Below are positions 4,594 through 6,034 of a stretch of 29,790 nucleotides of DNA, in pieces. The first letter of the stretch is position 1. Each line of letters starts with the position of its first letter. Origin of the DNA: a virus; UHGV virus genome UHGV-1477313; one strand, given 5' to 3'. Both the position numbers and the translations under genes were made by a program. The notes beneath the pieces were generated by a model. It worked only from the letters and a program-made list of their open reading frames with translations. It did not search any database and was not told where the DNA came from.

Positions 4594-4608
4594 TTACCTT
4601 TCAGGTGA
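4594..4608. promoter_or_regulatory. Operator-like dyad TTACC-tttca-GGTGA (imperfect member of the TTACC-N5-GGTAA family)
   Basis: Read directly; in the divergent promoter region between the tailspike and the Tum-like gene. Confidence 0.4.
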
Positions 4609-4645
4609 TTCGCAAAACGTGCTGGATAGCAAATAAATTATTTGA

Positions 4646-4665
4646 TACTGTATATTTATACAGTT
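4646..4665 (+). promoter_or_regulatory. LexA (SOS) box TACTGTATATTTATACAGTT
   Basis: CTGT-N8-ACAG with an AT-rich spacer, 18 of 20 matches to the E. coli LexA consensus TACTGTATATATATACAGTA. It sits about 20 nt upstream of the start codon of the Tum-like gene. Confidence 0.8.
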
Positions 4666-4684
4666 ATTGCATGGAGAAGATAAG

Positions 4685-4942
4685 ATGCAGCAGTATCACT
4701 ATCCACTGGAAGACGGATTTACCGAAAGGATTCACACGCCGGGAGGCGTCAGATCACTGGTGGAGGGATCGCACTTGATGAAATTACTCCGGGAGCTCGA
4801 TAAGGATGGATTTAATGTCGATGGCCCACTTGCCGAACTGACTGCACTGATTAACTACGTCACCAGCTCACAGATGTCTATGCGGGATCTGCAAACACAT
4901 CTCGACTATTGTGCCGAACAATTACGAAAACAAACCAGATAA
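4685..4942 (+). CDS. Small antirepressor-like protein (Tum-like), predicted LexA-regulated
   Basis: 85-aa ORF from ATG 4685 with a GGAG SD 8 nt upstream (the ORF track extends it to TTG 4667). Its C-terminal half (LMKLLRELDKDGFNVDGPLAELTALINYV..MRDLQTHLDYCAEQ) aligns with the C-terminus of the downstream Bro-N antirepressor (LMNLLNQLQDDGHDVSGAAAELTTMFCYI..LRDIQTHAEYISDK). Confidence 0.7.
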   Translation: MQQYHYPLEDGFTERIHTPGGVRSLVEGSHLMKLLRELDKDGFNVDGPLAELTALINYVTSSQMSMRDLQTHLDYCAEQLRKQTR

Positions 4943-4973
4943 GGTTTGCAATTACCAAGTGGAGTGCTTATAT

Positions 4974-4988
4974 TTACCTTTGCGGTAA
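4974..4988. promoter_or_regulatory. Operator-like dyad TTACC-tttgc-GGTAA nested inside a longer inverted repeat GGAGTGC...GCACTCC (4961..5004)
   Basis: Read directly. Confidence 0.4.
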
Positions 4989-5080
4989 ATTTACATCGCA
5001 CTCCTCTTGTGCCATAGTAATCGGGCACTGGAAAAATCCAGTGCCGGGATTGGCGTCCCGGATTACTAAAAGGCGCATTC

Positions 5081-5100
5081 ACCGCGCAAGCGGTTTTTTT
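5081..5100 (+). terminator. Putative intrinsic terminator (short GC stem with GCAA loop, then 7 T)
   Basis: ACCGC-GCAA-GCGGT followed by TTTTTTT; ends a roughly 150-nt structured segment downstream of the Tum-like gene. Confidence 0.45.
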
Positions 5101-5257
5101 ATGCGTATAGCACGGCCACATTCGTATTATGGTGGGCTGTGTGGGGGCACCGAAAGGTGCGCCGGGTCCTTTTAGCCGGTTACGCCAACCCTGCACAGTT
5201 CACCACCAACCGATTGGCGTCGGTAGTGGTGATTAACCAGACTAAAAGGTAACCACT

Positions 5258-5953
5258 ATGACAGCTACAAAAAGCACGTCCATTTTTTCTTTCGAATCCC
5301 AAGCCGATATACGGGTAATCGTCATTAATGGTGAGCCATGGTTTATCGCTTCAGATGTTTGTCGGGCTATAGGCATAGCAAACCATCGAGATGCTGTTCG
5401 AAAACTTGATGATGATGAGAAGGGCGTCGCTTCAACCGACACCCCTGGCGGTGAGCAAGAATCGATCATCATCTCCGAGTCAGGCCTCTACACACTGATC
5501 CTCCGCTGCCGCGACGCAGTGACACCAGGCACTATCCCCTACCGCTTTCGCAAATGGGTTACAGGTGATGTTCTTCCTCAGATCCGTCGCACCGGAAGTT
5601 ACATTAAAAACTCGCTCCCGCAGGAAGAACGCATAAAGATGGTTGCCGACCAGGTAGCCAGCGCCACAGCATCAGCAGTGATGCAGGCAATGAAGGTAGA
5701 GAACAAAACCTACAGCGCCCCACTGAAGCCCGGCTACCGCAGCCTGATTCATTCGCCGTCTGGTGTTCTTGGCCTGACGGAGAACTCACTGCTGATGAAT
5801 CTGCTGAACCAGTTACAGGACGACGGGCATGACGTATCGGGCGCGGCGGCGGAGCTGACCACCATGTTCTGCTACATCGTCGGTGTGAGCAAATGCCTGC
5901 GTGATATCCAGACGCACGCGGAGTACATCAGCGACAAAGCAGGGTTCTTCTGA
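5258..5953 (+). CDS. Antirepressor with N-terminal Bro-N domain and C-terminal Tum-like domain
   Basis: 231-aa ORF; the N-terminus (FESQADIRVIVINGEPWFIASDVCRAIGI..HRDAVRKLDDDEKG..SESGLYTLILRCRDAV..FRKWVTGDVLPQIRRTG) looks like the Bro-N/antirepressor fold. AAGGT SD precedes the ATG. Confidence 0.85.
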   Translation: MTATKSTSIFSFESQADIRVIVINGEPWFIASDVCRAIGIANHRDAVRKLDDDEKGVASTDTPGGEQESIIISESGLYTLILRCRDAVTPGTIPYRFRKWVTGDVLPQIRRTGSYIKNSLPQEERIKMVADQVASATASAVMQAMKVENKTYSAPLKPGYRSLIHSPSGVLGLTENSLLMNLLNQLQDDGHDVSGAAAELTTMFCYIVGVSKCLRDIQTHAEYISDKAGFF

Positions 5954-6019
5954 CGGGCGGCGGCACAGGGATGTGCCTTTAAAATAATCATTGGCGATGT
6001 GATGTAGATTCGCGTAAGA

Positions 6020-6034
6020 TTACCTTAAAGGTAA
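6020..6034. promoter_or_regulatory. Operator-like perfect dyad TTACC-ttaaa-GGTAA about 25 bp upstream of the 6061 start codon
   Basis: Read directly; overlaps the likely promoter of the 50-aa/158-aa operon. Confidence 0.45.

What the first reader, a model, noticed from the sequence alone, without database searches (positions are those of the whole stretch)
4594..6034. Recurrent operator-like dyad TTACC-N5-GGTAA at six positions, mostly in front of accessory and late transcription units
Sites at 4594..4608 (TTACC-tttca-GGTGA), 4974..4988, 6020..6034, 23512..23526 and 26671..26685 share the dyad, with a half-site also at 4544..4548. They lie in the tailspike/Tum divergent region, between Tum and the antirepressor, upstream of the 50/158-aa operon, at the tRNA-island promoter and just upstream of terS. 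A 15-bp dyad recurring this often in 30 kb, always intergenic, implies one dimeric DNA-binding protein coordinating these units, for instance an Arc/Mnt-like repressor of antirepressor and moron expression, or a late-gene regulator.
Basis: seen in the sequence. Interest (0 to 1): 0.6.

Follow-up and report, generated by a model that had tools for sequence, protein, structure and literature searches.

The report
Prophage repressor operators scattered across genome
The repeated TTACC-N5-GGTAA dyad is real and far above chance, but it is almost certainly the ordinary operator of the phage's main lysogeny repressor (the Rep protein known from Salmonella phages epsilon15 and SPC32H), whose gene lies outside this window, so it is a known kind of switch rather than a new regulator.

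Summary
All five dyads are at the stated coordinates and a sixth lies at 26653. There are 7 matches with at most 1 mismatch against 0.54 expected, and 4 exact against 0.02. Exact matches occur only at a 5-bp spacer, and 6 of the 7 lie in the 7% of the window outside genes.

The window is an epsilon15/phiV10-like temperate podophage. In seven relatives the same dyad occurs 14-18 times per complete genome, clustered on both sides of the CI-like repressor gene and at nearly every operon junction. The epsilon15 RefSeq record already annotates these dyads as repressor-binding sites, including the orthologues of 4594, 23512 and 26671.

The window's 'Tum' is the SPC32H antirepressor Ant (about 90% identical to PDB 5D50 chain E), preceded by a LexA box. 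The relatives' repressor is SPC32H-type Rep.

At 4974, 6020 and 26671 a -10-like hexamer ends on the dyad's first T, a classic repression position. The site at 6020 belongs to a conserved promoter-operator cassette in front of a variable cargo slot, here a YafO-like toxin.

Arc/Mnt or a late activator is not. This is a known kind of feature, with modest new details.

The parts
4594..4608 (.). Operator O_A, TTACCTTTCAGGTGA (1 mismatch), in the divergent gap between the tailspike gene (start 4489, - strand) and the small ant gene (start 4685, + strand)
   Evidence: Half-sites are invariant and the spacer varies in phiV10, Tyrion, epsilon15 and SPC32H. The orthologue in epsilon15 (19895-19911) is annotated as a repressor protein_bind feature. 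No conserved promoter overlaps it, so its role is unclear.
4974..4988 (.). Operator O_B, a perfect dyad between the small ant gene and the isrK/C4/Bro-N antirepressor unit
   Evidence: It is conserved with three different spacers in phiV10, Tyrion, HEMP4 and Phi05_1387B and in a Klebsiella phage. The predicted promoter TTGCAA-17-TATATT (4946-4974) ends on its first T.
6020..6034 (.). Operator O_C, a perfect dyad at the promoter of the cargo operon
   Evidence: In five phages the layout is terminator, -10 (TAAGAT/TAATAT/TACTAT/TAAAAT) ending on the dyad's first T, then the dyad, then unrelated cargo.
23512..23526 (.). Operator O_D, a perfect dyad between the structural-gene leader (gp3-like start 23421, - strand) and the tRNA-Arg/gp49_66-family island (+ strand)
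   Evidence: The epsilon15 orthologue (2931-2947) is annotated as a repressor site. An invariant TTGACA at 23490-23495 lies 17 bp before TACCTT (23513-23518) on the + strand.
26671..26685 (.). Operator O_E1, a perfect dyad just upstream of terS
   Evidence: The epsilon15 orthologue (12-27) is annotated as a repressor site. On the - strand, TGGTACTAT (26693-26685) is an extended -10-like element that is invariant from TACTAT onward in five phages and ends on the dyad's first T.
26653..26667 (.). Operator O_E2, a 1-mismatch dyad 18 bp from O_E1 that overlaps the terS ribosome-binding region
   Evidence: It is less conserved (epsilon15 TTACTTCGGTGGTAA; SPC32H has 2 mismatches).
4646..4665 (+). 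LexA box TACTGTATATTTATACAGTT in front of the small ant gene
   Evidence: 1 mismatch to the 20-bp consensus, 0 expected. It is conserved in five phages.
4685..4942 (+).
   Evidence: PDB 5D50 chain E (SPC32H anti-repressor), E 5.5e-47, aligned over residues 2-84 at roughly 90% identity.
5025..5100 (+). isrK-family sRNA with its terminator
   Evidence: RF01394, 76.7 bits (gathering score 50). A promoter-like TTTACA-17-CATAGT lies at 4990-5018.
5125..5210 (+). C4 antisense RNA family element
   Evidence: RF01695, 77.7 bits (gathering score 45).
5258..5953 (+). Second antirepressor: a Bro-N domain fused to an Ant-like C-terminal domain (231 aa)
   Evidence: Pfam Bro-N 6.2e-21. Residues 150-227 are 41% identical to the small Ant (E 1e-16). 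PHROG families annotated as anti-repressor. The homologue at the same position in ZX5 (ORF4; ZX5 matched this stretch at 95.6% DNA identity) behaved as an antirepressor when overexpressed (PMC9782041).
6055..6674 (+). Cargo operon under O_C: a 52-aa ORF (6055-6213; ATG at 6061) plus a 158-aa YafO-like toxin (6198-6674)
   Evidence: Pfam YafO_toxin at 34.4 bits against a cut-off of 25. There were no PADLOC, NCBIfam or PHROG-function hits.
26057..26650 (-). terS with a corrected start (ATG at 26650-26648), the first gene of the unit under O_E1/O_E2
   Evidence: Alignment. The annotated starts in Tyrion, epsilon15 and ZX5 lie just after the second dyad. An upstream terminator on the - strand lies at 26722-26705.
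4544..4567 (.). This is not a Rep dyad. It is a separate conserved composite element upstream of the tailspike gene.
   Evidence: The same composite occurs at 23450-23470.

Best explanation
The dyads are operators of the phage's main lysogeny repressor, the SPC32H/epsilon15-gp38-type Rep. Its gene lies in the immunity region outside this window.

In the lysogen Rep would sit on each dyad. At O_B, O_C and O_E1 the dyad begins on the last base of a -10 hexamer, so it would cover about -7 to +8. At O_D it covers the putative -10 itself. Bound Rep would therefore block RNA polymerase at the promoters of the isrK/C4/Bro-N antirepressor unit, the cargo operon, the tRNA island and terS-terL.

On DNA damage, LexA leaves the box at 4646-4665 and the small Ant (4685-4942) is made. 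According to the papers read here that cite the SPC32H work, Ant breaks up the Rep tetramer. All Rep-held units would then fire together. The Rep-repressed second antirepressor, which carries an Ant-like domain, would add positive feedback.

Shown here:
- the motif statistics;
- conservation of the half-sites with free spacers;
- location of the dyads at the repressor gene in relatives;
- protein homologies to the solved Rep and Ant.

Inferred:
- that Rep binds these particular sites;
- the promoter assignments;
- the feedback loop.
For: 1. Enrichment and spacer specificity, and non-genic placement.
2. Relatives carry 14-18 copies per complete genome against about 0.5-0.8 expected: phiV10 14, epsilon15 15, Tyrion 15, SPC32H 18, ZX5 14, TL-2011b 14. 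Two or three copies lie between rep and the divergent cro-like gene, and two or three lie on the other side of rep. The rest lie at operon junctions. All 14 copies in phiV10 are intergenic once the terS start is corrected.
3. The epsilon15 RefSeq record annotates these exact dyads as 'protein_bind: repressor, lysogeny' at 12-27, 2931-2947, 19895-19911, 32479-32632 (three sites) and 35906-35922. Three of them are orthologues of window sites.
4. phiV10 gp40 is homologous to SPC32H Rep (PDB 5D50_A, 4e-42, full length). Reps of E. coli, Enterobacter and Salmonella phages are only 42-46% identical overall but keep NLVNRW (residues 36-41) invariant. I take this segment to be the recognition helix. 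That fits the identical half-site across host genera.
5. The window encodes the cognate Ant behind a LexA box. All 17 E. coli records with a Rep homologue carry Rep at 98.5-100% identity.
6. A -10-like TAnnnT hexamer ends on the dyad's first T at O_B, O_C and O_E1, and is conserved across phages. The same layout, with a perfect TTGACA, occurs at the leftward early promoter of phiV10 (31953).
7. In ZX5, overexpressing the identical Rep abolished free phage and cut holin and endolysin transcripts by more than 99.9% (PMC9782041).
Against: - The rep gene and its operators are not in the window, so the cognate pair cannot be seen in this genome.
- No binding data were accessible. The SPC32H and epsilon15 primary papers are not held. 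The epsilon15 annotation may itself be only a prediction.
- No heteroimmune relative exists in the collection, so co-variation of repressor and operator could not be tested.
- O_A does not overlap a conserved promoter. Its centre lies about 41 bp upstream of the TTGATA that I read as the ant -35.
- The -35 elements at O_C and O_E1 are weak or absent, and the promoter at O_D rests on a 3-of-6 match in the -10.
- A Cro-like protein could bind the same sites.
Confidence: 0.8

Rival explanations
1. The small Cro-like protein encoded divergently from rep (phiV10 gp41 / epsilon15 gp39 type) is the main binder of the dispersed dyads, turning these units down during lytic growth. Rep may also bind, as with lambda CI and Cro sharing operators.
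For: The dyads lie between rep and the cro-like gene in all relatives. Shared operators are the rule in lambdoid switches (established knowledge).
Against: gp41 has no detectable HTH or other Pfam domain. The epsilon15 record assigns the sites to the repressor. This rival does not exclude the main explanation.
Confidence: 0.1
2. Another core regulator binds the dyads as a late or middle activator. Candidates are the 112-aa PHROG-536 'transcriptional regulator' encoded just upstream of terS (26772-27113, - strand) and the PerC-like protein of the early-left operon.
For: The 26772-27113 ORF is the only predicted regulator inside the window. Several dyads precede late units.
Against: The densest clusters flank the repressor gene and the early promoters, not the late genes. 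The dyad overlaps the -10/+1 region, which is a repressing rather than an activating position. A separate motif, AACCAYATATG, marks the late promoters and is a better candidate activator site.
Confidence: 0.05
3. An Arc/Mnt-like ribbon-helix-helix repressor encoded near the antirepressor genes binds the dyads, as in P22 immI.
For: The dyads flank antirepressor genes, and P22 immI sets a precedent (established knowledge).
Against: No RHH or other DNA-binding family hit was found for the ORFs tested in 4685-6674. epsilon15 and SPC32H lack the Bro-N/cargo module yet have 15-18 dyads. The dyads are genome-wide and include the primary immunity region.
Confidence: 0.02
4. The dyads act as RNA or DNA hairpins (terminators or processing sites). 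The terS pair alone might instead be terminase recognition sites.
For: Each dyad can form a 5-7 bp hairpin. O_B sits inside a larger hairpin of -18.2 kcal/mol, z -4.9. The terS pair lies next to position 1 of the deposited phiV10, epsilon15 and SPC32H sequences.
Against: The isolated hairpins are weak (-4 to -6 kcal/mol, z -0.9 to -2.2) and lack U-tracts. Across 48 sites from four genomes, the ACC and GGT cores are invariant in 47-48, with no compensatory changes. This fits protein recognition, not structure. The terS dyads have the same sequence as the operators at rep.
Confidence: 0.03

Closest known systems
Rep-Ant lysogeny switch of Salmonella phages SPC32H and epsilon15 (Rep = epsilon15 gp38; PDB 5D50, 5D4Z)
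   Same: The dyad is the same and sits at orthologous positions. The small Ant is about 90% identical and follows a LexA box. Relatives carry a homologous Rep.
   Different: The window adds operators that epsilon15 and SPC32H lack: one in front of an isrK/C4/Bro-N::Ant unit (O_B) and one in front of a cargo slot (O_C). These occur in the phiV10-like E. coli, Enterobacter and Klebsiella relatives. The E. coli Rep is only about 42% identical to the Salmonella one.
Phage P1/P7 C1 repressor with dispersed operators, and the immI region (C1-controlled promoter, c4 antisense RNA, icd, ant). Comparison from my own knowledge of the P1 literature.
   Same: One primary repressor has operators scattered over the genome. 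A repressor-controlled promoter lies in front of a C4-family RNA followed by an antirepressor (for the C4 match).
   Different: The P1 operator is an asymmetric 17-mer, and C1 was not compared with Rep here. In this phage the site is a symmetric 5-N5-5 dyad, and induction goes through a LexA-controlled small Ant.
Gifsy-1 isrK-orf45-anrP locus (PMC4825925)
   Same: An isrK-family sRNA with a leaky terminator lies upstream of a short ORF and a Bro-type antirepressor.
   Different: Here the unit is preceded by a Rep dyad and carries a C4-family element. The antirepressor has an SPC32H-Ant-like C-terminal domain.
Lambda-type CI/Cro operators
   Same: Palindromic operators overlap the -10/+1 of early promoters on both sides of the repressor gene.
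   Different: In lambda the operators are confined to OL and OR, and late genes are reached by antitermination. Here operators also precede terS, the tRNA island, the tail and lysis regions, int and cargo.
Mycobacteriophage L5-type 'stoperators' (from my own knowledge)
   Same: Many copies of the immunity repressor's site lie in short intergenic gaps throughout the genome.
   Different: Stoperators are asymmetric, depend on orientation and act on elongation. These sites are symmetric and sit at promoters.

Membership tests
Operators of the SPC32H/epsilon15-type Rep repressor | The same sequence forms the operator clusters flanking the rep gene | tested here: met
   Met in relatives: 2-3 dyads between rep and the cro-like gene and 2-3 on the other side, in phiV10, epsilon15, Tyrion, SPC32H, ZX5 and TL-2011b. 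The window itself does not contain rep.
Operators of the SPC32H/epsilon15-type Rep repressor | The cognate Rep is encoded in the same genome | not testable with these tools
   The immunity region is outside the window. Indirect support: the cognate Ant is present, and every E. coli record with a Rep homologue has Rep at 98.5-100% identity.
Operators of the SPC32H/epsilon15-type Rep repressor | Orthology to sites already assigned to the repressor | tested here: met
   The epsilon15 protein_bind 'repressor' features at 12-27, 2931-2947 and 19895-19911 align with window sites 26671, 23512 and 4594.
Operators of the SPC32H/epsilon15-type Rep repressor | The sites overlap core promoter elements | tested here: met
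   A conserved -10-like hexamer ends on the dyad's first T at O_B, O_C and O_E1. O_D overlaps a putative -10 located 17 bp after an invariant TTGACA. O_A is inconclusive. No transcription start sites are mapped.
Operators of the SPC32H/epsilon15-type Rep repressor | Demonstrated binding by Rep (EMSA, footprint or ChIP) | not testable with these tools
   The primary papers are not held. The solved structures matched by sequence (5D50, 5D4Z) list only Rep and Ant chains.
P22 immI Arc/Mnt operators | A ribbon-helix-helix repressor gene lies next to ant, and its operators are confined to that region | tested here: not met
   There are no RHH hits in the ORFs tested. The dyads are genome-wide and are also present in phages without this module.
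P1 C1-type dispersed operators / immI | An asymmetric 17-bp C1 operator and a C1 protein | tested here: not met
   The site is a symmetric 15-bp dyad. Rep matches HTH_3 and the SPC32H repressor. The functional resemblance remains (C4 RNA plus ant behind a repressor-controlled promoter).
Intrinsic terminators | A stable GC-rich hairpin followed by a U-tract | tested here: not met
   The hairpins are -4 to -6 kcal/mol with no T-run. None of the dyads is listed by the terminator scans.
Terminase recognition site (for 26653/26671 only) | TerS binding, or a packaging start at the site | not testable with these tools
   The only evidence is proximity to position 1 of the deposited genomes. The sequence is the same as the operators at rep.

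The most novel reading that the evidence does not exclude
In phiV10-like Uetakeviruses one repressor would directly gate nearly every transcription unit, including the terS-terL unit, which has its own extended -10 promoter and no obvious need for an activator. Two add-ons would be wired into this circuit.

(i) A second antirepressor, Bro-N fused to an Ant-like domain, is itself Rep-repressed and layered under isrK and C4 RNAs. This would give a positive-feedback latch once LexA-controlled Ant has fired.

(ii) A conserved terminator-promoter-operator cassette precedes a hypervariable cargo slot (YafO-like toxins, a DUF2335 protein, unknowns). The cargo would be silent in the lysogen and switched on only at induction or infection, which is the opposite of classical morons.

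A separate palindrome, AACCAYATATGGTT, at the tailspike, structural and lysis promoters would be the site of a still unidentified late regulator.
Probability: 0.35. Interest if true: 0.5.

Novelty: new member of a known kind. Interest (0 to 1): 0.25.

Why it matters
The finding mainly has annotation value. It assigns a function to six short intergenic elements and corrects two labels: 'Tum' is the SPC32H-type Ant, and terS starts at 26650.

It also shows that this phage family uses a single-input regulon, in which one repressor has operators at almost every operon junction.

Two points are modestly new. A second antirepressor with an Ant-like domain appears to be under Rep control, which suggests a commitment latch. 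A conserved Rep-operated promoter drives a swappable cargo slot, which predicts induction-coupled expression of a YafO-like toxin. Both can be tested with simple reporters in phiV10 or ZX5 lysogens.

Tried and rejected
1. Repressor/operator co-variation in heteroimmune relatives. tblastn with Rep found only 40 phage records. The six complete genomes and the partial Klebsiella locus that I scanned, which represent the E. coli, Enterobacter, Salmonella and Klebsiella Rep groups, all share the same dyad, so the test could not be made.

2. The excess of 2-mismatch sites (32 against 8.3) looked like weak sites inside genes. The spacer control showed similar counts at N6 and N1, so I rejected it as background.

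3. The site at 985-999 lies in coding sequence and is not conserved in phiV10, so I treated it as chance.

4. O_C as the autoregulatory operator of the toxin-antitoxin pair. I rejected this because the same promoter and dyad precede unrelated cargo in HEMP4, Phi05_1387B and ZX5.

5. MqsA-like host antitoxin sites. From memory, the MqsA palindrome is ACCT-N3-AGGT. I rejected this because the conserved core here is TTACC/GGTAA, O_E1 lacks ACCT/AGGT, and the sites cluster at rep. This was not tested further.

6. The primary literature was not held: the epsilon15 genome paper (PMC2698709) and the SPC32H papers (PMC3807360, PMC4983836). Full-text searches for the motif found nothing relevant.

7. 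A search of E. coli genomes for the full source prophage found no place covering at least 80% of the right end of the window.

8. PADLOC, NCBIfam and PDB searches on the cargo ORFs and on the 112-aa regulator found nothing.

9. Most fetched loci, including epsilon15, Tyrion and SPC32H, never appeared in the Python sandbox. Comparative work therefore used the DNA search and DNA alignment.
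Full report
**What is in the sequence.** Two further 1-mismatch copies exist. One is at 26653, 18 bp from 26671. The other is at 985, inside the holin-like ORF.

- There are 7 hits with at most 1 mismatch against 0.54 expected, and 4 exact against 0.02 expected.
- TTACC is the best of all 1024 pentamer half-sites at N5 in my own control.
- Exact matches occur only with a 5-bp spacer, both here and in phiV10.
- An apparent excess of 2-mismatch hits is equally present at other spacers, so it is background.
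- Six of the 7 hits lie in the 7.2% of the window outside my gene list (P about 9e-7).

**What the window is.** Megablast places the window in the epsilon15/phiV10 group (Uetakevirus), with the late genes on the - strand. Window position about 26771 corresponds to phiV10 position 1.

The finding's interval holds several recognisable elements:
- a strong LexA box at 4646-4665;
- an 85-aa ORF at 4685-4942 that matches the SPC32H antirepressor Ant (PDB 5D50_E, E 5.5e-47, roughly 90% identity);
- an isrK-family sRNA at 5025-5100 and a C4 antisense RNA element at 5125-5210;
- a 231-aa Bro-N protein whose residues 150-227 are 41% identical to the small Ant;
- a 52-aa ORF plus a 158-aa ORF with a YafO-toxin domain.

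**Where else the dyad occurs.** The dyad is not special to accessory or late units.
- Counts with at most 1 mismatch are 14 in phiV10, 15 in epsilon15, 15 in Tyrion, 18 in SPC32H, 14 in ZX5 and 14 in TL-2011b. Each is set against 0.5-0.8 expected.
- In each genome, two or three copies lie between the CI-like repressor gene and the divergent cro-like gene, and two or three lie on the other side of the repressor gene.
- Others precede the replication-distal early unit, int, the lysis cassette, terS, the gp3/tRNA junction and the ant/tailspike gap.
- The epsilon15 RefSeq record already carries 'protein_bind, repressor, lysogeny' features at 12-27, 2931-2947, 19895-19911, 32479-32494, 32554-32570, 32616-32632 and 35906-35922. 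These are exactly these dyads.
- Three of those features are the orthologues of window sites 26671, 23512 and 4594.

**Conservation.** In alignments of five phages from E. coli, Enterobacter and Salmonella, the half-sites are invariant while the 5-bp spacers differ, and at 23512 one flank is unalignable. A Klebsiella phage has the same two dyads around its ant gene. Over 48 sites from four genomes, the ACC and GGT cores are invariant in 47-48 and the spacer is only A/T-biased. There are no compensatory changes. Conserved sequence without such changes argues for protein recognition rather than hairpin function. The hairpins themselves are weak and lack U-tracts.

**Who binds.**
- phiV10 gp40 is a full-length homologue of SPC32H Rep (PDB 5D50_A, 4e-42).
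- Reps from the three host groups are only 42-46% identical but keep NLVNRW (residues 36-41) invariant. I take this to be the recognition helix, and it fits an unchanged half-site.
- All E. coli records with a Rep homologue carry Rep at 98.5-100% identity, and the window encodes the cognate Ant. The source phage therefore very probably has this Rep, although its gene is outside the window.
- Secondary sources state that SPC32H Rep binds palindromic sites as a tetramer whose DNA-binding pairs come from different dimers, and that tetrameric Ant breaks the tetramer (PMC9638917; PMC9986798).
- In ZX5, overexpressing the identical Rep eliminated free phage and reduced holin and endolysin mRNA by more than 99.9%. 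Overexpressing the Bro-N antirepressor lowered lysogeny (PMC9782041).

**How the sites are placed.**
- O_B: the predicted promoter TTGCAA-17-TATATT ends on the dyad's first T, and this arrangement is kept in Tyrion as TTGTAA...TATTAT.
- O_C: five phages share a terminator, a -10 (TAAGAT, TAATAT, TACTAT, TAAAAT or TACTAT) ending on the dyad's first T, and the dyad. Homology then stops and different cargo follows.
- O_E1: TACTAT, preceded by TGG in four of the five phages, ends on the dyad directly after the terminator of the upstream operon. I read this as an extended -10 promoter.
- O_D: an invariant TTGACA lies 17 bp before TACCTT on the strand leading to tRNA-Arg. The consensus scan did not call this promoter.
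- phiV10's leftward early promoter has a perfect TTGACA-17-AATTAT ending on the dyad at 31953. A second dyad lies 62 bp upstream. The same 62-bp pairs recur in all relatives. That fits a tetramer bridging two sites, which is my inference.
- O_A does not overlap a conserved promoter. Its role (auxiliary or looping site, or control of the tailspike promoter) is open.

**The 'half-site' at 4544.** TTACC is conserved there, but its partner is AACCA. It belongs to a composite, TTACC-N5-AACCAYATATG, that recurs at 23450-23470. The palindromic core AACCATATATGG also lies upstream of the lysis genes at 1481-1494. In relatives the same motif marks these three late units, and 1-mismatch copies lie next to two early-right dyads. 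This is probably a second regulator's site or a promoter element. I did not identify the binder.

**Comparison with known systems and verdict.** The set of sites is a member of the epsilon15/SPC32H Rep operator family.
- Three defining features were met: the same sequence at rep in relatives, orthology to annotated repressor sites, and overlap with promoters.
- Two features could not be tested: the cognate gene in the same genome, and direct binding.
- The system works like P1's C1 system, with dispersed operators and a repressor-controlled promoter in front of a C4 RNA and an antirepressor. It is not a member of that family.
- The Arc/Mnt, terminator and late-activator readings are not supported.

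The new details are the operator in front of a second, Ant-domain antirepressor and the conserved operator-promoter cassette in front of a variable cargo slot. These are inferences that need reporter or binding tests.

Noticed in passing
window 1481-1494, 4554-4567, 23460-23470: A second palindromic motif, AACCAYATATG(GTT), occurs only upstream of the lysis cassette, the tailspike gene and the gp3/structural operon. There are 5 hits against 0.82 expected. It is conserved in phiV10 and epsilon15, where 1-mismatch copies also lie next to two early-right Rep dyads. It is a candidate site for an unidentified late or middle regulator.
   Followed up: partly
window 5025-5100 and 5125-5210: Two Rfam RNAs, isrK and C4 antisense RNA, lie in tandem between the two antirepressor genes. 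A short ORF overlaps the C4 element. ZX5 annotates a 37-aa 'ash family' ORF at the same position, just upstream of its antirepressor. The layout resembles Gifsy-1 isrK-orf45-anrP and P1 c4-icd-ant.
   Followed up: partly
window 5258-5953: The Bro-N antirepressor carries a C-terminal domain homologous to the small SPC32H-type Ant (41% identity, E 1e-16). The phage therefore encodes two proteins with the Rep-binding module, one under LexA control and one under Rep and RNA control.
   Followed up: partly
window 6055-6674; L004 4746-5374; L005 4827-5413; L008 155-956; L009 32573-33272: A variable cargo slot lies downstream of the Bro-N gene. It holds a YafO-like toxin in the window and in TL-2011b, a DUF2335 membrane protein in ZX5, and unknown ORFs in HEMP4 and Phi05_1387B. 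Each cargo sits behind a perfect dyad. None gave a PADLOC hit.
   Followed up: partly
window 4958-5008: The dyad at 4974 sits in the loop region of a larger hairpin, GGAGTGC...GCACTCC (-18.2 kcal/mol, z -4.9). A Klebsiella phage has a different outer stem (ATGGGTT...AACCCAT) at the same place, and Tyrion has none. This may be the 3' hairpin or terminator of the small ant transcript.
   Followed up: partly
L001 20470-20530 compared with window 4960-5000: In phiV10 the 5-nt spacer of this dyad is inverted (GCAAA against TTTGC in the same orientation). The right flank mirrors the left flank, which extends the palindrome. This looks like a template-switch or hairpin-mediated conversion.
   Followed up: no
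window 26651-26731: The mechanical ORF, and the annotated phiV10 gp01, start terS 81 nt too early and swallow both dyads. The conserved start is the ATG at 26650-26648.
   Followed up: yes
window 23848-23924: tRNA-Arg(UCU) lies on the strand opposite the late genes. The phiV10 record annotates a hypothetical protein (gp04) over the equivalent stretch.
   Followed up: no
L001 31953/32015 and 35070/35132, and equivalents in L002, L003, L006, L008, L009: Pairs of dyads exactly 62 bp apart, start to start, recur at two loci in every relative. The proximal dyad lies at the -10/+1 of a TTGA(C/T)(A/T)-17 promoter. This fits one Rep tetramer looping across the promoter.
   Followed up: partly
window 4071, 6539, 22972: TGATG-N5-CATCA has 3 exact and 5 one-mismatch copies (8 against 1.7 expected). 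All fall within ORFs that I took as genes. I saw no obvious pattern, so this is probably compositional.
   Followed up: no
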